A DNA stretch of 40,168 nucleotides from Przondovirus KP32i192. The notes beneath the pieces were generated by a model. It saw nothing but the letters and a program-made list of their open reading frames with translations. It was not told the origin of the DNA and ran no database searches. Every line of letters begins with the position of its first letter. Position 1 is the stretch's first letter. Made by a program: the position numbers and the translations under genes. Location: sequence record OZ035748.1. One strand, written 5' to 3'. Below are positions 1 to 20,731 of this stretch, piece by piece.

Positions 1-26
1 ACTGGAAGAAAGCTAATAAGGAGTAA
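1..26 (+). CDS. Holin (T7 gp17.5-like), 3' end of the gene that begins at 39991; window is a circular permutation
   Basis: Bases 1-26 read tgg aag aaa gct aat aag gag taa in frame with the ORF running off the window end at 40168; joined product is 67 aa and ends WKKANKE like T7 gp17.5. Confidence 0.75.
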
Positions 27-29
27 CAT

Positions 30-287
30 ATGGACCTGATTAAGTTCCTCGAAATGTTAGACACTGAGATGGCTCAGCAGATGCTCATGGACCTGAAGAA
101 CCCAGAGAAGCGAACCCCTCAGCTGTACAACGCCATTGGTAAACTACTGGAGCGCCATAAGTTCCAAATCTCTAAGCTGACCCCTGACGTTAACATCTTG
201 GGCGGACTGGCTGAGGGTCTGGAGGCTTACAACTCCAAGGTGGGTGCTGATGGTCTGACAGACGACGATAAGTTCACCCTACAGTGA
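30..287 (+). CDS. Terminase small subunit / DNA maturation protein A (T7 gp18-like)
   Basis: 85-aa ORF; strong similarity to recalled T7 gp18 (FLEMLDT..AQ.ML.DL...PQLYNAI.KLL.RHKFQI.KL.PDV.ILGGLA...GLTDDD); RBS aaggag upstream. Confidence 0.85.
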   Translation: MDLIKFLEMLDTEMAQQMLMDLKNPEKRTPQLYNAIGKLLERHKFQISKLTPDVNILGGLAEGLEAYNSKVGADGLTDDDKFTLQ

Positions 288-326
288 TATACTCAAGGTA
301 CTACTATATGTAGTGCCTTTATGGAT
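288..326 (+). promoter_or_regulatory. RNase III-type processing hairpin (R18.5-like)
   Basis: ctcAAGGTACTACtatatGTAGTGCCTTtatg: 10-bp stem with one G-U pair, flanked by conserved ctcaagg / cctttatg motifs shared with four other sites in the window. Confidence 0.55.
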
Positions 327-383
327 GTCATTGCACTACGCTAGGCGTTCCTACGTGAAATCTGAGAAACAACGGGAGGCATT

Positions 384-830
384 ATGCTGGAGTTCACAAA
401 GAGAATCGTCCCGTATCTTGTGGCTATCATGGTGTTTGCCTTCGGGTGGCACTTGGGTTCGCAATCTACGGACGCTAAATGGAAGGAGGAAGTACAGAAT
501 GAGTACGTTAAGAAGCAAACGGCTAGAGCTGAAACTCAGAAAGCGATTGACGCAGTATCGGCTAAGTACCAAGCAGACCTTGAGGGGCTGGAGGGCAGCA
601 CTGATAGGGTTATTGCTGATTTGCGTAGCGACAATAAGCGGCTGCGCGTCAGAGTCAAACCTACCAGTGTCACCGCAGGACCAGACGGTCGATGCCTCGT
701 TGATGGTTCCGTCGAACTACACGAAGCAACTGCTCGAAGTCTTATCGCAATAACCCAGAAGGCCGACCTCAAAGAGAAGGCCCTACAGGACACTATTCGC
801 AAGCTACAGAGGAAAGGAGGTGAACATTGA
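384..830 (+). CDS. i-spanin (Rz-like, T7 gp18.5-like)
   Basis: 148-aa ORF with N-terminal TM segment; near-identical blocks to recalled T7 gp18.5 ([31 protein letters not shown]). Confidence 0.85.
499..753 (+). CDS. o-spanin (Rz1-like, T7 gp18.7-like) embedded in +1 frame inside the i-spanin gene
   Basis: Internal Met of the 313..753 ORF; product MSTLRSKR...[19 protein letters not shown] has signal peptide plus lipobox (ISGC) and matches recalled T7 gp18.7. Confidence 0.7.
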   Translation: MSTLRSKRLELKLRKRLTQYRLSTKQTLRGWRAALIGLLLICVATISGCASESNLPVSPQDQTVDASLMVPSNYTKQLLEVLSQ

Positions 831-2584
831 GTAACTCTCAGCAAGCCAAGAACGCCTTAATCATTGCGCAACTGAAGGGTGACTTTGTCGCCTTTCTCTT
901 CGTGCTCTGGAAGGCCCTGAACCTGCCGGAACCAACCAAGTGTCAAATCGACATGGCCAAGTGCCTGGCGAACCCAAAGAACAAGAAGTTTATCCTTCAG
1001 GCTTTCCGTGGTATCGGGAAGTCATTCATCACGTGTGCGTTCGTAGTGTGGACCCTTTGGCGTGACCCTCAGTTAAAGATACTGATTGTCTCAGCCTCAA
1101 AGGAACGTGCGGACGCTAACTCCATCTTCATCAAGAACATCATCGACTTGTTGCCTTTCCTGAGTGAGCTTAAGCCTCGCCCCGGTCAGCGTGACTCCGT
1201 GATTAGCTTTGATGTAGGCCCTGCCAAGCCGGACCACAGCCCGTCAGTTAAGTCTGTGGGTATTACGGGTCAGCTTACTGGTAGCCGTGCCGATATCATC
1301 ATTGCGGATGACGTGGAGATTCCCGGTAACTCTGCGACTCAAGGTGCTCGTGAGAAACTCTGGACGCTGGTTCAGGAGTTCGCTGCACTGTTGAAACCCC
1401 TGCCGACTAGCCGTGTTATCTATCTGGGTACCCCTCAGACCGAGATGACGCTCTACAAGGAACTTGAGGACAACCGTGGGTACTCCACCATCATTTGGCC
1501 TGCGCAGTATCCTCGCTCCAAAGAGGAAGACCTGTACTATGGCGACCGACTGGCACCGATGCTCCGCAGTGAGTACGATGAGGACAAAGAGGGTCTCAGC
1601 AGCCAACCTACCGACCCGGTTCGATTCGACTCCATGGACCTTCAGGAGCGTGAGGTGGAATACGGTAAGGCTGGCTACACGCTTCAGTTCATGCTCAACC
1701 CGAACCTTAGTGACGCCGAGAAGTATCCTCTACGCCTCCGTGACGCTATCGTGTGCGGTCTACAGATGGACAAGGCCCCAATGCATTACCAGTGGTTGCC
1801 GAATCGTCAGAACCGCAATGAGGAGCTTCCTAACGTGGGCATGAAGGGTGACGAGATTTACTCATTCCATACGGCATCCAGTAACACTGGTACGTATCAG
1901 GGTAAGATTCTGGTCATCGACCCAAGTGGTCGCGGTAAGGATGAGACTGGCTGGTGCGTACTGTACACCCTCAACGGCTACATCTACCTGATGGACGCTG
2001 GCGGCACTCGCGGTTACGAAGAGAAGTCCCTTGAGTTCCTCGCTAAGAAAGCAAAACAGTGGCAGGTTCAGACTGTGGTCTTCGAGAGTAACTTCGGTGA
2101 CGGTATGTTCGGTAACGTCTTCCAGCCTGTGCTCCTGAAGCATCACCCAGCGCAGCTCGAAGAGATTCGTGCTCGTGGTATGAAAGAGGTACGTATCTGC
2201 GATACCCTTGAGCCTGTACTGGCAAGTCACCGCTTGGTCATCCGCGATGAGGTAATCCGACAGGACTACCAGACGGCACGGGACGCAGACGGTAAGCACG
2301 CTCTGAAGTACAGCCTGTTCTACCAGATGACCCGTATGAGCCGTGAGAAGGGTGCTGTGGCACACGATGACCGACTTGATGCATTAGCATTGGGTGTCGA
2401 GTTCCTACGCTCTACGATGCAGCAGGACGCTGTGAAGATAGAGGCTGAGGTACTTCAGGAGTTCTTGGAGCACCACATGGAGAAGCCCCTGAGTAACATC
2501 TCCCAGTTCCGGGTCACCAGTAGCAACGGTGTGGACATCCGATGGGAAGACGACGGGGACGACTCTATGTTCATCGCATGGTGA
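827..2584 (+). CDS. Terminase large subunit / DNA maturation protein B (T7 gp19-like), TTG start
   Basis: 585-aa ORF collinear with recalled T7 gp19 ([25 protein letters not shown], ATPase and nuclease blocks); start is TTG 6 nt after aaggagg. Confidence 0.9.
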
Positions 2585-2664
2585 TTATGCAAGGATTGTG
2601 CATAAGGATTCATTAGGCCACGGAAGGCCACTTTGAGGAAACTCCATGTATAACAGACACTTGG

Positions 2665-2687
2665 AATTAGGGCACACTATAGGGAGA
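2665..2687 (+). promoter_or_regulatory. Phage RNAP promoter (phiOR-like, right end)
   Basis: AATTAGGGCACACTATAGGGAGA, full match to the window consensus; +1 G at 2682. Confidence 0.75.
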
Positions 2688-2828
2688 GACCCTTGAAGAC
2701 TTACTATAAGACAACTTAAAGATTCATTCATATAGTTATTCACTTTAAGTCTCCTTAAAGGTAGAGGGTAGTGATGATAATATCACCCTCTCACTACAAG
2801 ACACTAAGAGCCAACATAAGGAGGACCT

Positions 2829-2978
2829 ATGCGCTTATTGTTAACCTTACTGCGCCATAGGACTACTTGGCGATTTCTGCTGGTACTTGCTGGTGCCCTT
2901 GGGGCTTCACTGGTTACTCAGCAGCAACTCAGTGGACTGGAGACTCTCGTGTGCTCTCTACTCACTTGTAGCGATTAG
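2829..2978 (+). CDS. Small hydrophobic protein (gp19.5-like by position)
   Basis: 49-aa ORF with aaggagg RBS 8 nt upstream; hydrophobic; lies between terminase gene and genome end as gene 19.5 does in T7. Confidence 0.4.
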   Translation: MRLLLTLLRHRTTWRFLLVLAGALGASLVTQQQLSGLETLVCSLLTCSD

Positions 2979-3039
2979 GGTCTTCCTGACGCGCTAGGGA
3001 TTCCGTAGTGATGCTTATCAGCATACACCACTCCATCCC

Positions 3040-3440
3040 TCTATAGTCAATACTTAAAGTTAACCTTAGGTGATTCACTGGGTCTACCTACGGGTCTATG
3101 CACTGACCTGAGGACTACCTGAGGTTACCTTTAAGAATTTTACATAAAGTTCTGAGTGTACATCTCACAGTTTACACTTTTGGTCATCCCCCCCGGTACC
3201 CCTCCAGTTCACCCAAAGTAACCATGGGTACCCCCCTCTTTACCTTCAGTTTAACCTTGGGTGGTACCTTGGGAGTCCTTAGGTGATACTATATGTTGTG
3301 GTGTGGGTGACCTGAGGATACTATATGTTGATGTCTCTGTGTCCCTATCTGTTGGCCCTCTTTAAGTATCCACTGAGTACCACCTGAGGTTAGACCTGAG
3401 GTAATACCGGAGACCATATACCTTAGGTTAACCATGCGGC
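3040..3440. repeat. Array of short CCT(T/G)(A/G)GG heptamer repeats flanking the terminal-repeat region
   Basis: At least 9 copies of ccttagg / cctgagg / ccttggg, plus a 20-bp imperfect direct repeat (ccttaggtgatactatatgttg at 3277-3298, cctgaggatactatatgttg at 3311-3330); analogous to the short repeats near T7 genome ends. Confidence 0.5.
3163..3350. repeat. Putative direct terminal repeat (single collapsed copy) with predicted physical left end near 3163
   Basis: TCTCACAG at 3163-3170 matches the recalled T7 left-end sequence; TCTCTGTGTCCCTATCTGTT at about 3334-3353 matches the conserved block near the inner edge of the T7 terminal repeat; boundaries inferred. Confidence 0.35.
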
Positions 3441-3492
3441 CATCTGGTGAGTCATCACTATAGGGCTATTGGTGGTCATTGTCAATCAATCC

Positions 3493-3515
3493 TATTAGGA
3501 CACACTATAGGGAGA
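3493..3515 (+). promoter_or_regulatory. Phage RNAP promoter (phiOL-like, left end)
   Basis: TATTAGGACACACTATAGGGAGA; +1 G at 3510. Confidence 0.65.
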
Positions 3516-3594
3516 CACTTAAAGTATTACTTAGGGACCATCACCATAAAGATCACCATCACTATAGGTCTAACTAAAAGTTTAACTTTAAGTG

Positions 3595-3623
3595 TTGACA
3601 TTCAGATTCCGTTATGAGACATT
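3595..3623 (+). promoter_or_regulatory. Candidate host sigma70 early promoter (A1-like)
   Basis: -35 TTGACA (3595-3600), 17-bp spacer, weak -10 GACATT (3618-3623); position and flanks resemble T7 A1. Confidence 0.35.
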
Positions 3624-3726
3624 AGCAACCGTTGAGAGACACAACGCTACCAACCACTAGCATACTTCGAGTTATCTGGTTAGACTGATGGTCTCAAGTA
3701 GTCATCAACCGGACATACGAAAGTGG

Positions 3727-3755
3727 TTGACTCAACGATGAATAAGTAGTAAGAT
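3727..3755 (+). promoter_or_regulatory. Host sigma70 early promoter (A2-like)
   Basis: -35 TTGACT (3727-3732), 17-bp spacer, -10 TAAGAT (3750-3755); same hexamers as recalled T7 A2. Confidence 0.55.
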
Positions 3756-3854
3756 GCACCACAGATTCACGAAGTACCGCTAGGCAACTAGCATTGCTCT
3801 TTAACAATATGGATTAGTCAAGCTGATATGTACACCATGATAATAGTGTTTAAC

Positions 3855-3925
3855 TAGTGGTTACATTCAGGTCTCTGGCAAGGTACGTCCTGTCACCCTG
3901 AGAGTAGCCACAATGATAACCACTA
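3855..3925 (+). promoter_or_regulatory. Candidate long-range stem-loop in gene 0.3 leader (R0.3-like)
   Basis: TAGTGGTTA (3855-3863) is perfectly complementary to TAACCACTA (3917-3925), 9-bp stem enclosing 53 nt, immediately upstream of the gene 0.3 RBS. Confidence 0.3.
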
Positions 3926-3946
3926 ATCAACTGAAGGATATACATT

Positions 3947-4414
3947 ATGATTTTCACGAAAGAACCAGCCAACAAAGTATTCGTATTTGTTACTGCATAC
4001 CGTGGCCATGAGTCGCAGGAAGTAAACGAGAAGATGCTCAAGGGTCTCATTAAGACCATTCGCACCTATCCGGGAGCATACGGCAACATTCGTGATGAAC
4101 ATGTACAGGGCTGCTTTAAAGAAGCTGGTATGCCTGAGGCAACGCAAGAGCGCACGCTTAAAGTTGAGTGTACTGAGAAGCAAGCCGCAGAGTTGACGTG
4201 GCTGGCCTGTAAGACCTACTCGCAAGATGCTGTGCTGGTGGTGAACTCACAGACCCATACAGCCGCGCTATGGTCTATCACAAGCGTGGGAGAGTATCCG
4301 CAAGCATTTCCGATGCTCAAAGAGGATGCACTAGGTGGCACGCTGCAACAAGTGGACGCACCAAAGGGCGAATGCTATTCAAGCATCGACGGGCAATACT
4401 GGGAGGTGGTCTAA
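3947..4414 (+). CDS. SAM hydrolase/lyase (T3 gp0.3-like SAMase), anti-restriction
   Basis: 155-aa first early gene; N-terminus MIFTKEPA..VFVFV and overall collinearity with recalled T3 SAMase; not Ocr-like (not acidic). Confidence 0.7.
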   Translation: MIFTKEPANKVFVFVTAYRGHESQEVNEKMLKGLIKTIRTYPGAYGNIRDEHVQGCFKEAGMPEATQERTLKVECTEKQAAELTWLACKTYSQDAVLVVNSQTHTAALWSITSVGEYPQAFPMLKEDALGGTLQQVDAPKGECYSSIDGQYWEVV

Positions 4415-4560
4415 TGATTAATTATGGCCTCACTCAGGCAGACATTAGGCATTACCGCTGGTTGCTCTCACTAGGTAAACCGCACGACTACCTAATGATT
4501 CACCTAGCGCAAACCTACCGCACACGTAAGGTAATGTATGATAACCCTGTTCGTAATTAG
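4414..4560 (+). CDS. Hypothetical early protein (48 aa)
   Basis: ATG overlaps SAMase stop (TAATG); gggagg RBS 7 nt upstream; position of T7 genes 0.4-0.6. Confidence 0.4.
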   Translation: MINYGLTQADIRHYRWLLSLGKPHDYLMIHLAQTYRTRKVMYDNPVRN

Positions 4561-4735
4561 TGTGTACGCCATGATTGTCCTGTACTTTGTGCGGGACTTT
4601 CGTAAGGGTCTCAAGGTACACAAGGCATCATTCAGTTACATGAAGTGGGGCATACTGCCTCGCTTTACTGTACGGCTACCAAATGGCCGCTTTAAGGCTA
4701 ACAAGGTAGGTATTTTCTACATCGCAACCCATTGA
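4538..4735 (+). CDS. Hypothetical early small membrane protein (65 aa)
   Basis: ORF with aagg RBS; N-terminal hydrophobic segment ITLFVISVYAMIVLYFV. Confidence 0.4.
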   Translation: MITLFVISVYAMIVLYFVRDFRKGLKVHKASFSYMKWGILPRFTVRLPNGRFKANKVGIFYIATH

Positions 4736-4760
4736 CAAACCACCATAAGGAAACAACCTA

Positions 4761-5777
4761 ATGAACTACACCGACATGCAAGAACGCTTAGACGTCATCC
4801 GTAACCTGCCAATCTGTGAACTCGACAAGCGCCAGCCGCTGCTGGTAGCACTCATCGCGGACATTGTGAACTGCGAGACGTCCGATGGTGACGACACGGA
4901 TAGCGATTGGGGTCTGGAGCGACAGGACTACTGGCAAACCCTGAAGATTAAGGCCAAAGACGCTGGGTTTAACCTGCTGGGCAATGGACACTTCAGCGCA
5001 GCGTTTAAGCACGAGCTGCTACCGGGTAGGGTCATTAAGGTTGGCTTTAAGAAAGAGGATTCAGGGGCCGCATACGTGGCTTTCTGCCGGATGCACCAAG
5101 GCCGGGCAGGCATCCCTAACGTCTATCACGTAGCGCGTCACGCTGGGTGCTATACGGTGGTACTTGATGAGTTGGAACCATGCAAGCGCAGCAGTAACCA
5201 CTTGCACGACCACTACGCAGACCTCGCGTATTATTTTGTCGAGTGTGACTATGAGCCTGAGGAGCACCACGAGAAGGACTTACCGTTCATTGAGACGTGC
5301 CAGATGATTCGGGACTTCTTCTGTGGGATTGCATCCTTCGATATGCACAGCGGTAACATCATGTTCACCAAAGACGGCAAGCCAGTGATTACCGACCCGG
5401 TGTCATTCTCGGCGGACCGGGACCGTGAGCCTTTCTCACTGGAACCTGAGGAGCTACTTGCTGAGATTGAGCAGATAGCGCACGACAAGATGATTGAACG
5501 CTGCAAGCGCAACAAGGCTAAGCGTGACCCGAACGGAGCGCTGCGCATCGCACGGCGTAAGGCCAATAAGGAGCGTCGAGCACGCCGTAAGGCGCACGCT
5601 AGGTGGCGTAAGGAGCGTGAACGTGAACGTGAGCAGTATCACGTAGACGCCCTAAAGTTAGACCTAGCGAGTGTCGAGGAGCGCATTCTGGCGTGGCAAA
5701 TGGGTCCCGGCCTAGCGATACAAATGGGCAAGCCGTTGCCAATCGACAACTACCTTCAGGGTAGACTTATGGGTTAG
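4761..5777 (+). CDS. Serine/threonine protein kinase and host transcription shutoff protein (T7 gp0.7-like)
   Basis: 338-aa ORF; long identical blocks with recalled T7 gp0.7 (LPICELDKRQ, GNGHFSAA, RVIKVGFKKEDSGAAY, GIASFDMHSGNIMF). Confidence 0.85.
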   Translation: MNYTDMQERLDVIRNLPICELDKRQPLLVALIADIVNCETSDGDDTDSDWGLERQDYWQTLKIKAKDAGFNLLGNGHFSAAFKHELLPGRVIKVGFKKEDSGAAYVAFCRMHQGRAGIPNVYHVARHAGCYTVVLDELEPCKRSSNHLHDHYADLAYYFVECDYEPEEHHEKDLPFIETCQMIRDFFCGIASFDMHSGNIMFTKDGKPVITDPVSFSADRDREPFSLEPEELLAEIEQIAHDKMIERCKRNKAKRDPNGALRIARRKANKERRARRKAHARWRKEREREREQYHVDALKLDLASVEERILAWQMGPGLAIQMGKPLPIDNYLQGRLMG

Positions 5778-5791
5778 CAAGGTGTATCTTA

Positions 5792-5813
5792 GGTGTCTCC
5801 CGCAAGAGGCACC
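5792..5813 (+). promoter_or_regulatory. RNA hairpin in gene 1 leader (candidate R1 processing site)
   Basis: GGTGTCTC ccgcaa GAGGCACC: 8-bp stem (one G-U), 6-nt loop, no following U-tract so not an intrinsic terminator. Confidence 0.3.
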
Positions 5814-5846
5814 GATAGATAAACTTTATTCACAAAGAGGCACACA

Positions 5847-8567
5847 ATGAACGCATTAAACATTGCACGTAATGACTTCTCAGAGATTGAACTGGCCGCT
5901 ATTCCGTACAACATCCTCAGCGAGCACTACGGGGACAAGCTGGCACGTGAGCAGTTAGCACTGGAGCATGAGGCGTACGAGCTGGGTGAGCAGCGTTTCC
6001 TGAAGATGTTAGAACGTCAGGTGAAAGCTGGAGAGTTCGCTGACAACGTGGCCGCTAAGCCGCTGGTCCTAACGTTGCACCCGCAGCTGACCAAGCGCAT
6101 TGACGATTGGAAGGAGGAACAAGCAAACGCTCGTGGTAAGAAGCCTCGCGCATACTACCCGATTAAGCACGGCGTGTCCTCAGAGCTGGCCCTCAGTATG
6201 GGCGCTGAGGTACTCAATGAGAAGCGCGGAGTGTCCAGTGAGGCAATCGCACTGCTGACCATTAAGGTCGTCTTAGGGACGCTCACAGACGCCTCCAAGG
6301 CAACCATCCAGCAGGTATCCTCTCAGTTAGGCAAGGCTCTTGAGGATGAGGCCCGCTTTGGTCGTATCCGTGAGCAGGAAGCCGCCTACTTCAAGAAGAA
6401 CGTAGCGGACCAGCTGGACAAGCGTGTAGGCCACGTGTACAAGAAGGCTTTCATGCAGGTCGTCGAGGCCGATATGATTTCCAAAGGGATGCTGGGTGGG
6501 GACAACTGGTCCAGCTGGAAAACTGACGAGCAGATGCATGTGGGGACCAAGCTGCTTGAGCTACTCATCGAGGGCACTGGTCTGGTGGAAATGACCAAGA
6601 ACAAGATGGCCGATGGCTCCGACGATGTGACCAGTATGCAGATGGTCCAGCTGGCTCCGGCCTTTGTGGAACTCCTGAGCAAACGAGCGGGAGCACTCGC
6701 AGGTATCAGCCCGATGCACCAACCATGCGTAGTCCCTCCGAAACCTTGGGTGGAGACCGTAGGCGGTGGCTACTGGTCAGTCGGTCGCCGCCCGCTGGCG
6801 CTGGTTCGTACCCACTCCAAGAAGGCACTGCGCCGCTACGCAGACGTGCACATGCCCGAGGTATACAAAGCGGTAAACCTCGCGCAAAACACGCCGTGGA
6901 AGGTGAACAAGAAGGTGCTGGCGGTAGTCAACGAGATTGTCAACTGGAAGCACTGCCCGGTTGCTGACGTCCCGGCGATTGAACGCGAAGAGTTACCACC
7001 ACGCCCGGACGATATCGACACCAACGAGGTGTCACGCAAGGCATGGCGCAAGGAGGCCGCAGCGGTCTACCGTAAGGACAAGGCCCGCCAGTCTCGCCGT
7101 TTGTCAATGGAGTTCATGGTCGCACAGGCCAACAAGTTCGCTAACCACAAGGCCATCTGGTTCCCGTACAACATGGACTGGCGCGGACGTGTGTACGCTG
7201 TGAGCATGTTCAACCCGCAGGGTAACGACATGACCAAGGGTATGCTGACGCTGGCCAAGGGTAAGCCAATCGGTCTCGACGGGTTCTACTGGCTGAAGAT
7301 TCACGGTGCAAACTGTGCAGGCGTCGACAAGGTTCCATTCCCTGAGCGCATCAAGTTCATCGAAGAGAACGAGGGTAACATTCTGGCGAGCGCAGCAGAC
7401 CCGCTGAATAACATTTGGTGGACACAGCAAGATTCACCGTTCTGTTTCTTGGCGTTCTGCTTTGAGTACGCAGGCGTTAAACATCATGGCCTGAATTACA
7501 ACTGCTCGCTGCCGCTGGCATTCGATGGGTCATGCTCTGGGATTCAGCACTTCAGCGCGATGCTCCGCGATTCCATCGGTGGTCGTGCGGTTAACCTGCT
7601 GCCTTCTGATACTGTGCAGGATATCTACAAGATTGTGGCCGACAAGGTTAACGAGGTGCTTCACCAGCACGCTGTCAACGGGTCTCAGACGGTGGTCGAG
7701 CAGATTGCTGATAAAGAGACTGGCGAGTTCCGCGAGAAAGTAACACTGGGTGAGTCCGTGCTGGCTGCTCAGTGGTTGCAATATGGCGTGACCCGTAAGG
7801 TGACTAAGCGTTCGGTCATGACGTTGGCGTACGGTTCCAAAGAGTTCGGCTTCCGCCAGCAAGTTCTGGAAGACACCATTCAGCCTGCTATTGACAATGG
7901 CGAGGGCTTGATGTTTACGCACCCTAACCAAGCGGCTGGCTACATGGCTAAGCTGATTTGGGACGCTGTGACCGTGACCGTAGTGGCCGCTGTCGAGGCA
8001 ATGAACTGGCTGAAGTCTGCCGCTAAGCTGCTGGCTGCTGAAGTCAAGGACAAGAAGACCAAAGAGGTGCTGCGTAAGCGCTGCGCAATCCACTGGGTAA
8101 CACCCGATGGCTTCCCGGTGTGGCAGGAGTACCGCAAGCAGAACCAAGCGCGCCTGAAGCTGGTCTTCCTCGGGCAGGCCAACGTCAAGATGACGTATAA
8201 CACTGGGAAGGACTCAGAGATTGATGCCCACAAGCAGGAATCCGGCATAGCTCCTAACTTTGTTCACTCACAGGACGGTAGTCACCTACGCATGACCGTA
8301 GTACACGCCAACGAGGTCTACGGGATTGACTCCTTCGCACTCATTCACGACTCCTTCGGGACCATTCCGGCTGACGCTGGGAATCTCTTTAAGGCAGTCC
8401 GTGAGACGATGGTCAAGACCTACGAGGACAACGATGTGATCGCTGACTTCTACGACCAGTTCGCTGACCAGCTGCACGAGTCTCAACTGGACAAGATGCC
8501 AGCTGTTCCGGCCAAAGGTGACCTGAATCTGCGAGACATCTTGAAGTCAGACTTCGCGTTTGCGTAA
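5847..8567 (+). CDS. Single-subunit DNA-dependent RNA polymerase (T7 gp1-like)
   Basis: 906-aa ORF; collinear with recalled T7 RNAP along the full length, including the active-site region (LPLAFDGSCSGIQHFSAMLRD) and C-terminal FAFA. Confidence 0.95.
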   Translation: MNALNIARNDFSEIELAAIPYNILSEHYGDKLAREQLALEHEAYELGEQRFLKMLERQVKAGEFADNVAAKPLVLTLHPQLTKRIDDWKEEQANARGKKPRAYYPIKHGVSSELALSMGAEVLNEKRGVSSEAIALLTIKVVLGTLTDASKATIQQVSSQLGKALEDEARFGRIREQEAAYFKKNVADQLDKRVGHVYKKAFMQVVEADMISKGMLGGDNWSSWKTDEQMHVGTKLLELLIEGTGLVEMTKNKMADGSDDVTSMQMVQLAPAFVELLSKRAGALAGISPMHQPCVVPPKPWVETVGGGYWSVGRRPLALVRTHSKKALRRYADVHMPEVYKAVNLAQNTPWKVNKKVLAVVNEIVNWKHCPVADVPAIEREELPPRPDDIDTNEVSRKAWRKEAAAVYRKDKARQSRRLSMEFMVAQANKFANHKAIWFPYNMDWRGRVYAVSMFNPQGNDMTKGMLTLAKGKPIGLDGFYWLKIHGANCAGVDKVPFPERIKFIEENEGNILASAADPLNNIWWTQQDSPFCFLAFCFEYAGVKHHGLNYNCSLPLAFDGSCSGIQHFSAMLRDSIGGRAVNLLPSDTVQDIYKIVADKVNEVLHQHAVNGSQTVVEQIADKETGEFREKVTLGESVLAAQWLQYGVTRKVTKRSVMTLAYGSKEFGFRQQVLEDTIQPAIDNGEGLMFTHPNQAAGYMAKLIWDAVTVTVVAAVEAMNWLKSAAKLLAAEVKDKKTKEVLRKRCAIHWVTPDGFPVWQEYRKQNQARLKLVFLGQANVKMTYNTGKDSEIDAHKQESGIAPNFVHSQDGSHLRMTVVHANEVYGIDSFALIHDSFGTIPADAGNLFKAVRETMVKTYEDNDVIADFYDQFADQLHESQLDKMPAVPAKGDLNLRDILKSDFAFA

Positions 8568-8577
8568 GGTCTCGGGC

Positions 8578-8600
8578 AATTAGGGCACACTATAGGGAAC
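8578..8600 (+). promoter_or_regulatory. Phage RNAP promoter (phi1.1A-like)
   Basis: AATTAGGGCACACTATAGGGAAC; transcript starts with a 10-bp hairpin GGGAACCTTCG/CGAGGGTTCC. Confidence 0.7.
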
Positions 8601-8660
8601 CTTCGAATGACCGAGGGTTCCATTACTTAAAGTCTTAACTTAAAGAATACTTAAAGAGGC
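8595..8660 (+). other. Candidate primary replication origin region (promoter plus AT-rich tacttaaag repeats)
   Basis: 5' hairpin followed by three copies of (t/a)acttaaag at 8624, 8637, 8648; in T7 the primary origin is the promoter/AT-rich region just downstream of gene 1. Confidence 0.3.
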
Positions 8661-8665
8661 ACACC

Positions 8666-9226
8666 ATGACTTACTCAATCGTTGTAACCATCTTGTTAAT
8701 CGTATTAATCATCCTGTTAGTAAGGGCCGTCACACGACTCGGTGCCTGCGAGTACGCCCTTGAGAAGCAAGCCAAGAGCAACGAGGAGTACACAGACGGC
8801 TTGCACGATAAGGTCTGCCGCCTGTCTGACGATAAGGTATCACTCAATAAGCAGGTGCGGTGGTTAGAGAGCGAGCTTGAACACGAGAAGCAGAAGGTAC
8901 GCGATGTGAACGAACTACGGGAACGCCAGCGGGACCGCATGAAGTTCCTCCGCAAGTCCCTCAAGGAAGCACAAGATGAGCTGATGATGGTCTCCGACCT
9001 GATTCACGTTAAGTTCACCGCTGTGTTGCCGGACGGTACCCACTCCAAGACGCTCTTTAAGTTAGGACTTGGGCCGTGTGGCCTGCACGTTAAGTCCCTC
9101 CGCTGGACCGAGCTGGATGACCGCTATCTGATAGACCAGCTGTGCACCAACGGTGAGCGCAAGCAGTTCGTTTATTACAAGAGCGAAGTAGTGGGACGCA
9201 TCGAGTTCCGCCACGGTAAGATTTAA
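8666..9226 (+). CDS. Hypothetical protein, N-terminal TM helix plus coiled coil (no T7 counterpart; gene 1.05 position)
   Basis: 186-aa ORF with aagagg RBS; hydrophobic N-terminus IVVTILLIVLIILLV followed by charged heptad-rich region; no similarity to T7 proteins I can recall. Confidence 0.6.
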   Translation: MTYSIVVTILLIVLIILLVRAVTRLGACEYALEKQAKSNEEYTDGLHDKVCRLSDDKVSLNKQVRWLESELEHEKQKVRDVNELRERQRDRMKFLRKSLKEAQDELMMVSDLIHVKFTAVLPDGTHSKTLFKLGLGPCGLHVKSLRWTELDDRYLIDQLCTNGERKQFVYYKSEVVGRIEFRHGKI

Positions 9227-9247
9227 TTAGGACCCACTATCAGGAAC
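9225..9247 (+). promoter_or_regulatory. Degenerate phage promoter-like element (phi1.1B position)
   Basis: AATTAGGACCCACTATCAGGAAC: upstream -17 to -2 matches consensus but -1/+1 is C/A instead of A/G. Confidence 0.35.
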
Positions 9248-9248
9248 A

Positions 9249-9285
9249 TACTCAAGGTCATCACGTTTGGTGGCCTTCATGAATG
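9249..9285 (+). promoter_or_regulatory. RNase III-type processing hairpin (R1.1-like)
   Basis: tactcAAGGTCATCACgtttGGTGGCCTTcatgaatg; shares ctcaaggtca / tggcctt motifs with sites at 288, 9773, 16538. Confidence 0.55.
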
Positions 9286-9315
9286 TCCCTTAATATCACA
9301 ATCAGGAGCAACACC

Positions 9316-9492
9316 ATGTATCAGAACACAATCAACTTTGAGCGCACCCGTGAACGTCAGCAGACAGAGGGTTACATCCCTAAGGGCCGCAAGCTGAACA
9401 AGACGAAGCGCGGTGGTGGGGTGAAGGGTTCCTTCCGTAACGCTAAGGGTGACAGCGTTGTTAACCAAGAGAAATACTTCGTGGGAGCGTAA
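9316..9492 (+). CDS. gp1.1-like small basic protein
   Basis: 58-aa product contains KGRKLNKTKR as in recalled T7 gp1.1; aggag RBS 7 nt upstream. Confidence 0.55.
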   Translation: MYQNTINFERTRERQQTEGYIPKGRKLNKTKRGGGVKGSFRNAKGDSVVNQEKYFVGA

Positions 9493-9495
9493 CAA

Positions 9496-9753
9496 ATGGC
9501 TACGGAAAAAAGATGGCTTTTCGATGGGAGCACCTCACAATGGTCTCGTTTAGGAGCAGCGGAGCGTAGACTACTGGATACGACAGGACTGCACGTGGTC
9601 ATGCTTGACGACCCATTCACTAACACCGTGCTGTTCAACGTATTCGAGCCACGCGGGTCACTTCTAATAAGTAAGCGGTTCAGCCACTGGTCGATTGACT
9701 CAGCGTCAGACTGGCTGGCAAAACTCGCAGCTGACTACTCAAGCTGGCAGTAA
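9496..9753 (+). CDS. gp1.2-like protein (possible host dGTPase inhibitor) by size and position
   Basis: 85-aa ORF, same length and position as T7 gp1.2; sequence similarity weak. Confidence 0.45.
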   Translation: MATEKRWLFDGSTSQWSRLGAAERRLLDTTGLHVVMLDDPFTNTVLFNVFEPRGSLLISKRFSHWSIDSASDWLAKLAADYSSWQ

Positions 9754-9774
9754 TTAGGACACACTATAGGCAGA
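9752..9774 (+). promoter_or_regulatory. Phage RNAP promoter (phi1.3-like)
   Basis: AATTAGGACACACTATAGGCAGA; +1 G at 9769. Confidence 0.65.
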
Positions 9775-9809
9775 CTCAAGGTCATCGGATTCCGGTGGCC
9801 TTTATGATT
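9773..9809 (+). promoter_or_regulatory. RNase III-type processing hairpin (R1.3-like)
   Basis: gactcAAGGTCATCGGattCCGGTGGCCTTtatgatt: 11-bp stem with two G-U pairs. Confidence 0.55.
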
Positions 9810-9853
9810 GCTTATTGCACACTAAATGAACACTACACTTCGGAGACATCGTC

Positions 9854-10918
9854 ATGATGAACATTAAGACTAATCCATTTAAGGCTGTATCATTCGTTCG
9901 CTCTGCTATCGAGAAGGCGCTGGAGACTTCCGGTTACCTCATCGCAGACACTAAGCACGATGGTGTGCGCGGTAACATCTGCGTAGACAACACGGCCAAC
10001 GCAGCGTGGCTCAGCCGGGTCTCCAAGACCATTCCGGCCCTTGAGCATCTCAACGGTTTCGACCAGCGCTGGAATAAGTTACTGAAAGATGACCGCTGGA
10101 TTTTCCCGGATGGCTTCATGCTTGATGGCGAACTCATGGTCAAAGGCGTGGACTTCAACACCGGGTCTGGTCTACTGCGCACCAAGTACCTGAAAGAAAA
10201 GAACATGAAGTTTGACACCCGCGCCCTTCTTGACTTCGATAAGAAGCTGTGGGGGACCAAAACTCCATTCCGCCTACAGACGGGCAAACTCAAAGTTGTC
10301 CTCTATGATATCATTCCGCTTGACATTATCGAGTCCGGTGATGACTACAACGTGATGACCCTCCTCCGCCTTGAGCACGTCAAGGTAGCCTTACCAGTCC
10401 TGCAAGACCACTTCCCTGAAGTCGAGTGGTGCCTCTCGGAGTCCCATGAAGTTTACGACATGGACGAACTCGATGCGCTTTACCGACAGAAACGCGAAGA
10501 AGGTCACGAAGGTCTGGTGGTTAAGGACCCTCAGGGCATCTACAAGCGCGGTAAGAAGTCCGGCTGGTGGAAACTGAAGCCAGAGAACGAGGCTGACGGT
10601 GTCGTTGTGGGACTCAACTGGGGAACTCCCGGTCTTGCCAACGAGGGCAAGGTGATTGGCTTCGAGGTACTCCTTGAGTCTGGTCGCGTGGTATCCGCCA
10701 ACAACATCTCTCAGGCACTTATGGAGGAGTTTACCTCCGCATGGCTCAACGCTAACACCGAGGACTTCACAGGAACAACAGCGCCAAACCCAGTGAACCC
10801 TTACGAAGGCTGGGCGTGCCAAATCAAGTACATGGAGGAAACTCCAGATGGCTCTCTGCGTCACCCGTCGTTCGACAAATGGCGTGGCACTGAGGCTGAC
10901 CCGACCATAAAGATGTAA
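9854..10918 (+). CDS. ATP-dependent DNA ligase (T7 gp1.3-like)
   Basis: 354-aa ORF; N-terminus MMNIKTNPFKAVSFV and adenylation motif KYDGVRG match recalled T7 ligase. Confidence 0.92.
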   Translation: MMNIKTNPFKAVSFVRSAIEKALETSGYLIADTKHDGVRGNICVDNTANAAWLSRVSKTIPALEHLNGFDQRWNKLLKDDRWIFPDGFMLDGELMVKGVDFNTGSGLLRTKYLKEKNMKFDTRALLDFDKKLWGTKTPFRLQTGKLKVVLYDIIPLDIIESGDDYNVMTLLRLEHVKVALPVLQDHFPEVEWCLSESHEVYDMDELDALYRQKREEGHEGLVVKDPQGIYKRGKKSGWWKLKPENEADGVVVGLNWGTPGLANEGKVIGFEVLLESGRVVSANNISQALMEEFTSAWLNANTEDFTGTTAPNPVNPYEGWACQIKYMEETPDGSLRHPSFDKWRGTEADPTIKM

Positions 10919-10939
10919 TTAGGACCCACTATAGGAGAC
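10917..10939 (+). promoter_or_regulatory. Phage RNAP promoter (phi1.5-like)
   Basis: AATTAGGACCCACTATAGGAGAC. Confidence 0.65.
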
Positions 10940-10944
10940 ACCAA

Positions 10945-11031
10945 ATGTCTATCAACCTGATTCTAATCATCGTGTTCATCCTCGCGGCTATCGTGTGGTC
11001 AATGAACGACGAGCCACCAAAAGGAGTATAA
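10945..11031 (+). CDS. Tiny hydrophobic ORF (28 aa)
   Basis: MSINLILIIVFILAAIVWSMNDEPPKGV; directly after promoter; no strong RBS. Confidence 0.25.
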   Translation: MSINLILIIVFILAAIVWSMNDEPPKGV

Positions 11032-11033
11032 CC

Positions 11034-11297
11034 ATGCGCTTACACTTCAATAAATCCAACGGCATCTTCTCGGTTCGCCGGGAGGACCGCAGCACTGTAG
11101 CGGCCTCTGAGCGCCACGGTAAGATTCCACGTATCGGCGATACCTTCGAGCTGGCACCTCGTGTGCACATCTTGGTTACTCGCGGTCTCTACGAATTGGC
11201 TCAAACTAAGAGCCGTCCTTTCGTACCCGTAGTGGTGACCAAGTGGCCACGCCTTCGCCTGTTCTGGGAGCGTATCAAGGAGGTGGTCAATGACTGA
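11034..11297 (+). CDS. Hypothetical protein (gp1.6-like by size and position)
   Basis: 87-aa ORF from internal ATG of ORF 10995..11297; aaggag RBS 8 nt upstream. Confidence 0.4.
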   Translation: MRLHFNKSNGIFSVRREDRSTVAASERHGKIPRIGDTFELAPRVHILVTRGLYELAQTKSRPFVPVVVTKWPRLRLFWERIKEVVND

Positions 11298-11715
11298 ACG
11301 TGAAATTCAAGTGGTGAATCTGCTGGTTGAACAAAACACTGACCGCCCAGACTCCACAACGTGCGCTGATGGCGTCATATGCTACAAGGTATCGTGCAGT
11401 GAGTGTCCGCTAGACACCAAAGGTACGACCATTGGGGAAGTCCGCGCAATGAAGGACAGCAAGGCTCCGAGTGTAGAAGACGACGGTGTTAAGCAGCCGA
11501 GCCACTACCAGCTGTTCGACGGTGTCGAGGCCATCGAGGTGATTGCTCGCAGCATGACCCAAGAGATGTTTAAGGGGTACTGCCTCGGGAACATCCTCAA
11601 GTACCGCCTTCGGGCCGGGAAGAAGTCCGAGCTGGCTACCTTAGAGAAAGACATGGCGAAGGCCGCTTTCTATCTGGAACTATACGAGAAACACAAGGGG
11701 TTGTGCCATGATTGA
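11290..11715 (+). CDS. gp1.7-like protein with DUF3310-type C-terminal motif (possible nucleotide kinase family)
   Basis: 141-aa ORF; aaggagg RBS; C-terminal HYQ..GVEAIEVI...GYCLGNILKYRLRAGKK resembles the conserved motif of T7 gp1.7 relatives. Confidence 0.45.
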   Translation: MTEREIQVVNLLVEQNTDRPDSTTCADGVICYKVSCSECPLDTKGTTIGEVRAMKDSKAPSVEDDGVKQPSHYQLFDGVEAIEVIARSMTQEMFKGYCLGNILKYRLRAGKKSELATLEKDMAKAAFYLELYEKHKGLCHD

Positions 11716-11845
11716 GTTAACACCGAGTCGTATTGAAATCCTGAAGATTTGGGCGAAGGACTTCCTCAGAATCTACCAGACTGAGGACTTCACCAAGGAG
11801 GAGCTTGAGTTCATTGAGGAGATTCTTAGCAATGAACCCGAGTGA
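11708..11845 (+). CDS. Small protein (gp1.8-like by position)
   Basis: 45-aa ORF overlapping neighbours; translated by hand. Confidence 0.3.
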   Translation: MIELTPSRIEILKIWAKDFLRIYQTEDFTKEELEFIEEILSNEPE

Positions 11846-11922
11846 CTGGTGCCGAGCGATGTACGAGAAGACGCTCGACCCTGCGTACATAACCCTGTAT
11901 AACATGTGGAAGGAGTGGGAAG

Positions 11923-12072
11923 ATGCAAAAATTCGTCGTAACGGTCGAGACAGCTAACGCATCGTATGAACTCCCGGTACACGCTGGGTCTCTTGAGGAG
12001 GCCCTAGAAGTTGCCGAGGCGGAGTACGAAGAGTTAGGCCAAGTGACTCGGGTACGCCCGGATAGTCATTAG
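11923..12072 (+). CDS. Host RNA polymerase inhibitor (T7 gp2-like)
   Basis: 49-aa ORF; aaggag RBS; YELPVHAGSLEEALEVAEAEY...VTRVRP parallels recalled T7 gp2 ([21 protein letters not shown]...VTRVRP). Confidence 0.65.
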   Translation: MQKFVVTVETANASYELPVHAGSLEEALEVAEAEYEELGQVTRVRPDSH

Positions 12073-12089
12073 GACACACTATAGGGACA
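12067..12089 (+). promoter_or_regulatory. Phage RNAP promoter (phi2.5-like)
   Basis: CATTAGGACACACTATAGGGACA. Confidence 0.65.
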
Positions 12090-12131
12090 CAGGTTGTCCC
12101 TCTTTCTGTTATAAACCAAAGGAGATTCATC

Positions 12132-13276: not shown

Positions 13277-13277
13277 T

Positions 13278-13733: not shown

Positions 13734-13734
13734 C

Positions 13735-14100: not shown

Positions 14101-15943
<1,843 letters not shown>

Positions 15944-16224: not shown

Positions 16225-16535
16225 TGACTACCAAAGCTAAATTCCCCGGCAACACCATTCAGCTGTCCGACACTGTAGACCAGTGGGGCCGCAAGGTTCA
16301 CATCAACGTCCGCAACGACAAGGTCACTCTGGTCTACCGCTGGAAGGCTAAGAGCGATAACCGTGCGCACACTCAGCGTGTGACCCTAGACGATACTCAA
16401 GCAGCTCGCCTGCTGGCATCAGTGGCTGTAGCAGCAGCTGTAGCTGTCGGTGAGGACAAAGTGCGTGACGCTATTCTGGGTAAAGAGGTTGGAGAAACCT
16501 CCATGCGACTGGCCGCAGCGTCAGAGCTTAAGTGA
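16224..16535 (+). CDS. Hypothetical protein (gp4.5-like by position)
   Basis: 103-aa ORF, ATG overlaps upstream stop (TAATG). Confidence 0.45.
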   Translation: MTTKAKFPGNTIQLSDTVDQWGRKVHINVRNDKVTLVYRWKAKSDNRAHTQRVTLDDTQAARLLASVAVAAAVAVGEDKVRDAILGKEVGETSMRLAAASELK

Positions 16536-16537
16536 TA

Positions 16538-16578
16538 AACTCAAGGTCATTACTATATGTAGTGGCCTTTATGATTAT
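16538..16578 (+). promoter_or_regulatory. RNase III-type processing hairpin (R4.7-like)
   Basis: aactcAAGGTCATTACTAtatgTAGTGGCCTTtatgatt; same motif family as 288-326. Confidence 0.55.
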
Positions 16579-16607
16579 CACACACAACATATTGAGAGGA
16601 CATTACC

Positions 16608-20554: not shown

Positions 20555-20646
20555 TTCTCATCGTACTGACCATGGGCTTAGTCGCTCGTGGTCTCTGGAT
20601 GTTAGCCTTGATTATCAAGCAGATAGTCGAGCATAAACCAGAGTGA
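20536..20646 (+). CDS. Tiny hydrophobic ORF (gp6.3-like by position)
   Basis: 36-aa hand-translated ORF overlapping gene 6 end. Confidence 0.25.
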   Translation: MATGQLILIVLTMGLVARGLWMLALIIKQIVEHKPE

Positions 20647-20647
20647 T

Positions 20648-20697
20648 AAACTCATGGGCACAATTAGGACCCACTATAGGGAAGTGCCCATTATGAT
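20648..20697 (+). promoter_or_regulatory. RNase III-type hairpin enclosing a promoter (R6.5-like)
   Basis: ATGGGCAC (20654-20661) pairs with GTGCCCAT (20684-20691); the promoter sits in the loop; flanks actcatgg / ccattatgatt resemble the other sites. Confidence 0.4.
20662..20684 (+). promoter_or_regulatory. Phage RNAP promoter (phi6.5-like)
   Basis: AATTAGGACCCACTATAGGGAAG. Confidence 0.65.
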
Positions 20698-20731
20698 TAT
20701 TACTTAAAGATTACTTAAAGAGGAGACTCAA

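What the first reader, a model, noticed from the sequence alone, without database searches (positions are those of the whole stretch)
288..326. Family of conserved RNase III-type processing hairpins sharing the flanks ctcaaggtca ... tggcctttatga
At least four sites (288-326, 9249-9285, 9773-9809, 16538-16578) share the same flanking motifs around a 10-11 bp imperfect stem; a fifth (20648-20697) has related flanks and encloses a promoter in its loop. They sit where T7 has R18.5, R1.1, R1.3, R4.7 and R6.5, which process polycistronic mRNAs and stabilise 3' ends.
Basis: partly seen in the sequence, partly recalled or inferred. Interest (0 to 1): 0.4.

Follow-up and report, generated by a model that had tools for sequence, protein, structure and literature searches.

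The report
T7-type RNase III processing hairpins
The window is a Klebsiella T7-like phage genome, and the five repeated hairpins are the counterparts of the well-studied T7/T3 sites where the host enzyme RNase III cuts long phage messenger RNAs into stable pieces, so the finding is correct but ordinary.

Summary
A covariance model finds exactly five copies in the window, all on the + strand: 280-334, 9239-9292, 9763-9817, 16528-16584 and 20639-20706. The first four helped train the model; the fifth did not. Each copy has an imperfect lower stem (up to 8 pairs), a 4/5-nt internal loop (ACUC / UAUGA) and an upper stem whose base is AAGG/CCUU.

The window is a circularly permuted Przondovirus (K11/KP32-like) genome. 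The sites lie between orthologues of T7 genes 18|18.5, before 1.1, 1.2|1.3, 4.5|4.7 and 6.3|6.5. These are the positions of T7 R18.5, R1.1, R1.3, R4.7 and R6.5. The motif equals the T7 consensus around the cleavage point (CCUUUAU|GAUU). It is also what the T3 and phiYeO3-12 records annotate as RNase III sites.

Across 76 distinct sites from relatives, 93.5% of cells pair and 15 of 18 pairs show compensatory changes.

The best explanation is host RNase III signals cut once in the 3' side of the loop, leaving a protective 3' hairpin. Cleavage is inferred from homology, not shown for this phage.

The fifth site has only an 8-bp upper stem. Canonical R0.3, R0.5 and R1 sites are missing.

This is a known kind with new, unannotated members. 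Interest is low.

The parts
280..334 (+). R18.5-type site. Lower stem 282-290 / 325-333. Internal loop 291-294 (ACUC) and 320-324 (UAUGG). Upper stem 295-304 / 310-319. Apical loop 305-309. The gene 18 stop codon TGA (285-287) lies in the lower stem. Predicted cut between 322 and 323; gene 18.5 starts at 384.
   Evidence: Model match 59.9 bits. Fold -24.9 kcal/mol, z -3.9. Flanked by terminase small subunit and Rz-like spanin. Cut position inferred from alignment to T7 R18.5.
9239..9292 (+). R1.1-type site. Lower stem 9241-9249 / 9283-9291 (two mismatches). Internal loop 9250-9253 and 9278-9282 (CAUGA). Upper stem 9254-9263 / 9268-9277. Apical loop 9264-9267. Predicted cut between 9280 and 9281; gene 1.1 starts at 9316.
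   Evidence: Model match 59.0 bits. Fold z only -1.8 in a 76-nt context. Downstream ORF is the T7 gp1.1 homologue. The same position in K11 follows the annotated phi1.1 promoter.
9226..9243 (+). phi1.1 promoter-like sequence directly upstream of the R1.1 site. It is degenerate here (TATCAG instead of TATAGG). Transcripts started here would lack part of the lower stem.
   Evidence: Promoter pattern match with 3 mismatches. Relatives carry TATAGGA at this place.
9763..9817 (+). R1.3-type site. Lower stem 9765-9773 / 9808-9816. Internal loop 9774-9777 and 9803-9807. Upper stem 9778-9787 / 9793-9802. Apical loop 9788-9792. Predicted cut between 9805 and 9806; the ligase gene starts at 9854.
   Evidence: Model match 57.5 bits. 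Fold z -4.3. Lies between the dGTPase inhibitor (gene 1.2) and the DNA ligase (gene 1.3).
9753..9770 (+). phi1.3 promoter. Its start point (G9769) lies inside the 5' arm of the lower stem of the R1.3 site, so promoter-initiated RNA has a truncated lower stem.
   Evidence: Exact promoter match. Same overlap as annotated in T3 and phiYeO3-12.
16528..16584 (+). R4.7-type site. Lower stem 16532-16538 / 16575-16581. Internal loop 16539-16542 and 16570-16574. Upper stem 16543-16553 / 16559-16569 (11 bp). Apical loop 16554-16558. The gene 4.5 stop codon TGA (16533-16535) lies in the lower stem. Predicted cut between 16572 and 16573; gene 4.7 starts at 16608.
   Evidence: Model match 59.1 bits. Fold z -3.8. 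Flanked by T7 gp4.5 and gp4.7 homologues.
20639..20706 (+). R6.5-type site. Lower stem 20641-20649 / 20697-20705. Internal loop 20650-20653 and 20692-20696. Upper stem only 8 bp, 20654-20661 / 20684-20691. The 22-nt apical loop is the phi6.5 promoter. Predicted cut between 20694 and 20695; gene 6.5 starts at 20732.
   Evidence: Model match 39.5 bits, E 1e-6, not in the training set. Fold z -4.0. Downstream gene is the T7 gp6.5 homologue. Same architecture in T7, T3 and phiYeO3-12.
20662..20684 (+). phi6.5 promoter inside the apical loop of the R6.5 site. The start point is G20679, so RNA begun here carries only the 3' arm and cannot form the hairpin. Only read-through RNA would be a substrate.
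   Evidence: Promoter match with 1 mismatch. The consequence for substrate formation is inference from the coordinates.
4761..5777 (+). Gene 0.7 protein kinase homologue. It is associated with the sites but is not part of the repeat family. The T7 kinase raises RNase III activity by phosphorylating it.
   Evidence: 51% identity to T7 gp0.7. Role of the T7 kinase from the abstract of PMC4858673. Function here is inferred.

Best explanation
The five elements are RNA-level processing signals for the host's RNase III. They are orthologous to T7 R18.5, R1.1, R1.3, R4.7 and R6.5.

Proposed mechanism:
1. In polycistronic + strand transcripts, each element folds into two coaxial helices separated by an asymmetric 4/5-nt internal loop.
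2. RNase III binds the upper helix through its proximal-box pairs (C.U or C.C, A-U, A-U or U-A, G-C).
3. Because the loop removes the partner strand, the enzyme cuts only one phosphodiester, on the 3' side of the loop after ..CCUU(U/C)AU.
4. The upstream mRNA is left ending in the upper hairpin, which shields it from 3'-to-5' exonucleases.
5. The downstream mRNA gets a defined 5' end 35-61 nt before the next start codon.

At R1.1, R1.3 and R6.5 a phage promoter overlaps the element. RNA started at that promoter carries an incomplete hairpin (R1.1, R1.3) or none (R6.5). Mainly read-through RNA would then be processed.

Shown here: the sequence family, its structure, covariation, strand specificity and synteny. 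Inferred: cleavage, its exact position and its consequences.
For: - **Not chance.** 3 exact motif matches against 0 expected. Five model matches at E 1e-6 to 1e-11, and nothing else.
- **Structure.** All five sites fold as lower stem, loop and upper stem. RNAalifold on 18 sites finds 13 of 18 pairs with compensatory changes. On 76 distinct sites from relatives, 93.5% of cells pair, against 26-53% when partners are slid. 15 of 18 pairs have double changes, and 0 of 500 shuffles reach the observed values.
- **RNA on the + strand.** All 264 matches in 80 related contigs are on the coding strand, most at the expected positions relative to the DNA polymerase gene. Each site has 2-4 G.U pairs and folds 1.7-12 kcal/mol better than its reverse complement.
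- **Identity with known sites.** The T7 cleavage coordinates fall on the same hairpin motif at eight of the ten sites. The phiYeO3-12 and T3 records annotate the motif as RNase III sites. The model recovers exactly the 8 canonical annotated T3 sites, which were not used in training, and the 8 canonical T7 sites.
- **Synteny**.
- **Substrate rules.** PMC1540722 reports about an 11-bp helix between cut and loop; a proximal box of G-C, then A-U or U-A, then A-U, with a non-G-C pair next to the scissile bond; and that internal loops limit cleavage to one strand and give protective 3' hairpins. Four sites meet these rules.
Against: - No experimental data exist for this phage or genus.
- The R6.5-type site has only 8 upper-stem pairs before a 22-nt loop. 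It therefore lacks a helix where the distal box should be, so its reactivity is uncertain.
- The R1.1-type site has two mismatches in the lower stem and a weak fold z-score (-1.8).
- The covariation alignment was fitted to the model structure, which favours that structure. The independent RNAalifold result and the slid controls offset this.
- The T7 cleavage coordinates came from my memory of Dunn and Studier (1983). The RefSeq copy used here does not list the sites.
- T7 grows without RNase III (PMC6938266), so the sites need not be essential.
Confidence: 0.85

Rival explanations
1. The hairpins bind RNase III, or another host or phage protein, without being cut. They would act as regulatory operators or stabilisers rather than processing sites. 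This may apply only to some copies, such as the short-stemmed R6.5-type site.
For: The internal loop and lower part of the upper stem are conserved far more strongly than pairing alone needs. Several columns are invariant in 76 distinct sites. PMC1540722 describes motifs and base pairs that allow binding but block cleavage. The R6.5-type site has only 8 upper-stem pairs.
Against: The sites are orthologous to T7 sites that are cut in vivo and in vitro (established knowledge; PMC6938266). The position next to the scissile bond is C.U or C.C, not the G-C pair that uncouples binding from cleavage. No candidate binding protein is indicated by the data.
Confidence: 0.07
2. They are transcription terminators, attenuators or pause sites for the host or phage RNA polymerase.
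For: They are intergenic hairpins followed by a U-rich stretch (UUUAUGAUU), and several sit next to promoters.
Against: None of the four sites within the scanned 1-20000 region is picked up by the terminator scan. The U residues after the stem are interrupted, and two of them pair within the stem. The conserved two-helix-plus-loop design, with a covarying lower stem beyond the U-rich stretch, is not terminator architecture. K11 and T3 annotate their terminators elsewhere.
Confidence: 0.02
3. They act at the DNA level, as cruciforms, protein-binding sites, replication or recombination signals, or as a spreading repeat element.
For: The sequence is repeated five times. One copy lies near the region where T7 and T3 have their primary replication origin (T3 annotation). 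The R4.7 and R18.5 copies share an apical sequence, which suggests copying between sites.
Against: The stems rely on G.U pairs that become C.A on the other strand. The reverse complement folds worse at every site. All 264 copies in relatives are on the transcribed strand. Positions are fixed by synteny across genera rather than scattered.
Confidence: 0.02
4. They are inherited relics with no present function in this Klebsiella phage.
For: T7 can grow without RNase III. This phage has already lost the canonical R0.3, R0.5 and R1 copies.
Against: Compensatory changes continue within and between genera, and the sites are nearly invariant across hundreds of Przondovirus genomes that are about 92-94% identical overall.
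Confidence: 0.04

Closest known systems
Bacteriophage T7 RNase III processing sites R1.1, R1.3, R4.7, R6.5 and R18.5 (Dunn and Studier 1983; R1.1 is the standard model substrate)
   Same: Same consensus (ACUCAAGGUC...GGCCUUUAU|GAUU). Same lower stem / 4-5 loop / upper stem design. Same intergenic positions between orthologous genes. Similar spacing to the next start codon: 35 nt at R4.7 and 61 nt at R18.5 in both phages. Same promoter-in-loop arrangement at R6.5.
   Different: The apical halves of the upper stems differ, with compensating changes. R6.5 has an 8-bp upper stem here against 10 bp in T7. T7 has three more canonical copies (R0.3, R0.5, R1) that this phage lacks.
Annotated 'RNase III recognition site' stem-loops of phages T3 (NC_003298) and phiYeO3-12 (NC_001271)
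   Same: Same motif and positions. The model built here recovers exactly the 8 canonical T3 features.
   Different: Those records annotate 10 sites each, including R0.3, R0.45/R0.5, R1, R3.8 and R13. In Przondovirus records, including reference phage K11, the sites are not annotated at all.
Other E. coli RNase III substrates, such as the 30S rRNA precursor stems and phage lambda N-leader and sib sites (from my own knowledge)
   Same: About two turns of double helix recognised by the same enzyme. Proximal and distal box rules apply (PMC1540722).
   Different: Those substrates have no sequence similarity to this family and are mostly cut on both strands. The T7-group sites are cut once because of the internal loop.
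Putative RNase III stem-loops annotated in Pseudomonas phage gh-1
   Same: Intergenic hairpins in a T7-like genome, proposed to have the same role.
   Different: They do not belong to this sequence family. The model finds nothing in gh-1 (best 11.6 bits, E 4.5). It also finds nothing in three contigs whose DNA polymerase is 58-60% identical to the window's.

Membership tests
T7-group RNase III processing signals (R sites) | Hairpin of two coaxial helices (about 20 bp in all) interrupted by an asymmetric internal loop | tested here: met
   All five fold this way. Model structure: 8 + 10 pairs with a 4/5 loop.
T7-group RNase III processing signals (R sites) | Consensus sequence ACUCAAGGUC...GGCCUU(U/C)AUGA(U/A)U around the cleavage point | tested here: met
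   Alignment with 7 T7 and 7 phiYeO3-12 sites. Column conservation in 76 distinct sites. The R6.5 copy is a variant (ACUCAUGGGC...GCCCAUUAUGAUU).
T7-group RNase III processing signals (R sites) | Sense-strand, intergenic location syntenic with the T7 sites | tested here: met
   Flanking genes are orthologous to T7 18|18.5, 1.1, 1.2|1.3, 4.5|4.7 and 6.5. All matches in relatives are on the + strand.
T7-group RNase III processing signals (R sites) | Pairing maintained by compensatory substitutions | tested here: met
   93.5% of cells paired, 15 of 18 pairs with double changes, slid controls 26-53%. 13 of 18 pairs by RNAalifold on an unfitted alignment.
T7-group RNase III processing signals (R sites) | Proximal box compatible with E. 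coli RNase III: G-C, then A-U or U-A, then A-U, and no G-C pair next to the scissile bond (PMC1540722) | tested here: met
   By inspection of the five sequences against the rules read. The boxes are G-C / A-U / A-U / C.U in three sites, C.C at the last position in R1.1, and G-C / U-A / A-U / C.U in R6.5.
T7-group RNase III processing signals (R sites) | About 11 bp of helix between cut and apical loop, with a distal box (U-A, U-G) near the top | tested here: inconclusive
   Four sites have 10-11 pairs plus the non-canonical pair. R4.7 has the exact U.G / U-A box; the others have U.G / C-G or a variant, as many T7-group sites do. R6.5 has only 8 pairs, so its distal-box position falls in the loop.
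T7-group RNase III processing signals (R sites) | Single-strand cleavage by RNase III in vivo and in vitro, lost in rnc mutants | not testable with these tools
   No transcript-end or rnc data for Przondovirus were found in the searchable papers.
Intrinsic (rho-independent) terminators | G+C-rich stem followed directly by an uninterrupted run of U | tested here: not met
   The terminator scan of 1-20000 lists none of the four sites in that range. The tail is UUUAUGAUU, with two of its U residues paired in the stem.
Rfam families | Match to a curated covariance model at its gathering score | tested here: not met
   No Rfam family matches anywhere in the window. Rfam therefore appears to have no model for these sites.

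The most novel reading that the evidence does not exclude
The near-invariant loop and proximal-box sequence may be kept for something beyond simple RNase III cutting. It is identical across T7-, T3- and K11-type phages of enterobacteria. It is absent from Pseudomonas phage gh-1 and from more distant relatives. Possible extra roles are recognition by a second host or phage factor, or cleavage tuned by the gene 0.7 kinase. The short-stemmed, promoter-bearing R6.5 copy of Przondoviruses could be a bind-but-do-not-cut regulatory site.
Probability: 0.08. Interest if true: 0.45.

Novelty: new member of a known kind. Interest (0 to 1): 0.15.

Why it matters
The main value is for annotation and engineering. 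Hundreds of Klebsiella Przondovirus genomes, which are being developed for phage therapy and as sources of RNA polymerases, carry these five processing signals without any annotation. Synthetic rearrangements or gene swaps at the 18|18.5, 1.2|1.3, 4.5|4.7 and 6.3|6.5 junctions could therefore break mRNA processing and stability by accident.

The covariance model built here cleanly separates true sites from noise: 8 of 8 in T3, 8 of 8 in T7, and none in gh-1. It could be used to annotate the whole group.

Biologically, the result confirms that the T7 processing scheme is conserved in a Klebsiella lineage. The early-region sites have been partly lost or replaced there.

Tried and rejected
- **Rfam, gathering thresholds.** No family matched in the window.
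- **Loose motif scan of IMG/VR** (CTCAAGG-N10-40-CCTTTATG). Most of the 80 listed loci were chance matches. Only about a dozen, all on ~38-45 kb T7-like contigs, were confirmed by the model.
- **Canonical R0.3, R0.5 and R1 copies in the window.** None found, even with filters off and E up to 10.
- **Weak K11 match at 811-895** (26.5 bits with default filters). It was not reproduced with filters off and I dropped it.
- **K11 site at 1090-1142.** It is real, but it lies in a segment missing from the window.
- **Terminator interpretation.** Not supported.
- **RefSeq T7 record.** It did not list the RNase III sites, so I used coordinates recalled from Dunn and Studier (1983) and checked them against the motif.
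- **T3 locus file.** It never reached the script sandbox. I tested T3 through the model search instead.
- **Literature searches** for RNase III sites or transcript-end mapping in K11/KP32-type phages. Nothing found.

Full report
[quoted passage not shown] The window is a circularly permuted genome. It starts in gene 18, passes through gene 19 and the terminal-repeat region, and continues from gene 0.3 to gene 17 (ORFs, K11 annotation, promoter map).

**Checking the observation.** All five sites are present.
- The strict pattern CTCAAGGT-N15-30-GCCTTTATG occurs three times, against none in 100 shuffles. The site at 9249 differs by one base.
- I aligned the four core sites with seven T7 and seven phiYeO3-12 sites. 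I built a covariance model from this alignment.
- I searched the whole window with filters off. There are exactly five matches, all on the + strand: 280-334, 9239-9292, 9763-9817, 16528-16584 (57.5-59.9 bits) and 20639-20706 (39.5 bits, E about 1e-6).
- The fifth site was not in the training set. The next best match scores 14 bits.

**Anatomy.**
- The quoted 'flanks' are structural. AAGG(UC) pairs with (GG)CCUU to form the base of a 10-11 bp upper stem.
- ACUC on the 5' side and UAUGA on the 3' side form an asymmetric 4/5-nt internal loop.
- Sequences further out form a lower stem of up to 8 pairs (6-8 of them standard in each site).
- In two sites the stop codon of the upstream gene (TGA at 285-287 and 16533-16535) lies in the lower stem.
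- In the fifth site the upper stem has only 8 pairs. Its 22-nt apical loop is a complete phage promoter (20662-20684).
- Each site has 2-4 G.U pairs and folds 1.7-12 kcal/mol better than its reverse complement. This points to an RNA structure on the sense strand.

**Comparative evidence.**
- RNAalifold on the 18-site alignment predicts the two-helix structure, with compensatory changes at 13 of 18 pairs.
- I fetched 80 viral contigs encoding relatives of the DNA polymerase, at 58-99% identity. The model found 264 matches in them. All are on the coding strand, and most lie at the expected distances from the polymerase gene.
- The three most distant contigs (58-60% identity) have none, even with filters off.
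- Pseudomonas phage gh-1 also has none, although its record annotates other hairpins as putative RNase III sites.
- On 76 distinct sites, 93.5% of cells form standard pairs. The figure is 26-53% when partners are slid by 1-3 columns.
- In the same set, 15 of 18 pairs show changes on both sides, and no shuffle of 500 reaches the observed values. That alignment was fitted to the model, which favours the structure. The unfitted RNAalifold result and the slid controls agree with it.
- Conservation is highest in the loop and the lower six pairs of the upper stem. The top of the upper stem, the apical loop and the outer lower stem vary and covary.

**Identity with known sites.**
- I recalled the T7 cleavage coordinates for the ten RNase III sites from Dunn and Studier (1983). 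Eight of them fall on the same hairpin motif, with the cut after ...cctttat in five and after a variant of it in three.
- The phiYeO3-12 record annotates the same motif as 'putative RNase III site'.
- The T3 record annotates ten 'RNase III recognition site' stem-loops.
- T3 was not used in training. The model returns eight matches in it, and these are exactly the eight canonical annotated sites. It also returns the eight canonical T7 sites.
- The genes flanking the window's sites are orthologues of T7 18 and 18.5, 1.1, 1.3, 4.5 and 4.7, and 6.5. The PHROG assignments agree.
- K11 has the same five sites at the same places relative to its annotated genes and promoters.
- Distances from the predicted cut to the next start codon are 61, 35, 48, 35 and 37 nt. 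T7 has 61 nt at R18.5, 35 nt at R4.7 and 42 nt at R6.5.

**Mechanism.** The best explanation is processing by host RNase III, as in T7.
- Pertzev and Nicholson (PMC1540722) report that internal loops restrict cleavage to one phosphodiester. The product is a 3' hairpin that protects against 3'-to-5' exonucleases.
- They report that about 11 bp of helix between cut and loop is the minimum for their model substrate.
- The preferred proximal box is G-C, then A-U or U-A, then A-U, with a non-G-C pair next to the scissile bond.
- The five sites have these proximal-box pairs. Four have 10-11 pairs plus the non-canonical C.U or C.C pair.
- The R6.5-type site is short, so its reactivity is less certain.
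- By alignment with T7, the predicted cuts are at 322|323, 9280|9281, 9805|9806, 16572|16573 and 20694|20695.
- The phi1.3 start point (G9769) lies within the lower stem. The phi6.5 start (G20679) lies inside the apical loop, so RNA begun at phi6.5 cannot form the hairpin. Only read-through RNA would be cut there (inference).
- The phage also encodes a gene 0.7 kinase homologue. The T7 kinase raises RNase III activity (PMC4858673 abstract).
- T7 mRNAs are processed by RNase III at ten sites, commonly next to promoters, yet T7 grows without RNase III (PMC6938266).

**Rivals.**
- Terminators: the scan of 1-20000 lists none of the four sites in that range, and the architecture does not fit.
- DNA-level elements: strand asymmetry and G.U pairs argue against them.
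- Binding without cleavage, or binding of another factor: this cannot be excluded from sequence. It is most plausible for the R6.5 copy.
- Functionless relics: continuing compensatory change and near-invariance across Przondoviruses argue against this.

**Differences from T7 and T3.**
- The window has five canonical sites, not eight. No canonical R0.3, R0.5 or R1 copy is detectable.
- K11 has one extra R1-type variant just upstream of gene 0.3 (1090-1142, 33.7 bits). That site lies in a ~230-bp segment absent from the window.
- At the R1 position (0.7|1) there is a different hairpin, 5779-5827.
- At the R3.8 and R13 positions there are hairpins of the other T7/T3 types.

**Novelty.**
- The kind is textbook.
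- The instances appear not to be annotated. The K11 reference record has no such features.
- None of 60 records sampled across 513 matches shows a stem-loop feature at the R4.7 site.
- No searchable paper describes these sites or maps transcript ends in this genus.
- I file the sites as new members of a known kind, with low interest.

Noticed in passing
window 13899-13970 (+): An unannotated tRNA-like cloverleaf lies downstream of the phage promoter at 13837. It has a 7-bp acceptor stem (UGGUCAG/CUGACCA) and a D-like arm. The 'anticodon' arm is tiny (4 bp, 3-nt loop). The T arm matches the tRNA/tmRNA consensus perfectly (CGGGUUCGAUUCCCG), and the element ends in CACCA. ARAGORN calls it only at a lowered threshold, as 'tRNA-???' with a 2-nt anticodon. 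Rfam matches only the T arm. No searchable paper mentions it. It could be a processing signal for tRNA-maturation enzymes or a decayed tRNA.
   Followed up: partly
window 28694-28730 (+): A 16-bp perfect hairpin (z -6.6) whose 3' arm is the phi13 promoter itself (-11 to +3). It sits between genes 12 and 13, where T7 and T3 have R13. The geometry differs from T3 R13, where the promoter lies in the loop. It could be an RNase III target in read-through RNA, or a DNA-level feature of the promoter.
   Followed up: partly
window 13850-13875, 8596-8621 and 12083-12101 (+): Transcripts from several phage promoters would begin with a stable 5' hairpin. The one at 13850-13875 (CAGGGAGAC..GUUUCCCUG) resembles T7/T3 R3.8 (AGGGAGAC..GUUUCCCU). 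Those after phi1.05 (10 bp) and phi2.5 are similar in kind.
   Followed up: partly
window 5779-5827 (+): A hairpin in the gene 0.7|gene 1 spacer, at the position of T7/T3 R1. It has 5 + 5 + 8 pairs with small internal loops. It does not match the family model although T7 and phiYeO3-12 R1 were in the training set, so it is a diverged or replaced R1.
   Followed up: partly
window about 3926-3947, against K11 (L002) 896-1158: Relative to K11, the window lacks about 230 bp just upstream of gene 0.3. In K11 that segment holds an unannotated ATG-initiated stretch (possibly a small ORF) and an R1-type RNase III-like site (1090-1142). The breakpoints lie in a repeated GATAACCACTAA sequence.
   Followed up: partly
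window 9226-9243 (+): The phi1.1 promoter reads ACTATCAGGA here, instead of the ACTATAGGA seen in most relatives (changes at -1 and +1). It may be weakened in this phage and a few relatives.
   Followed up: no
locus L156 2949-3003 (R1.3 orthologue): In one related contig both U.G wobble pairs of the upper stem are changed on both sides to C.A. C.A can form a wobble of the same shape when protonated, which hints that wobble geometry matters at those two positions.
   Followed up: no
window 295-319 and 16543-16569: The R18.5 and R4.7 copies share the same apical sequence (ACUAUAUGUAGUG). The R4.7 hairpin also matches, at about 92%, sites lying in or beside the terminase small subunit (gene 18) gene of Kayfunavirus, Escherichia, Salmonella and Yersinia phages, presumably their R18.5 sites. 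This suggests copying or conversion between paralogous sites.
   Followed up: no
window 3270-3335 (+): Direct repeats (GATACTATATGTTG twice, and several ACCTGAGG / CTTAGGT-like motifs) lie in the presumed terminal-repeat / concatemer-junction region between phiOR and phiOL.
   Followed up: no
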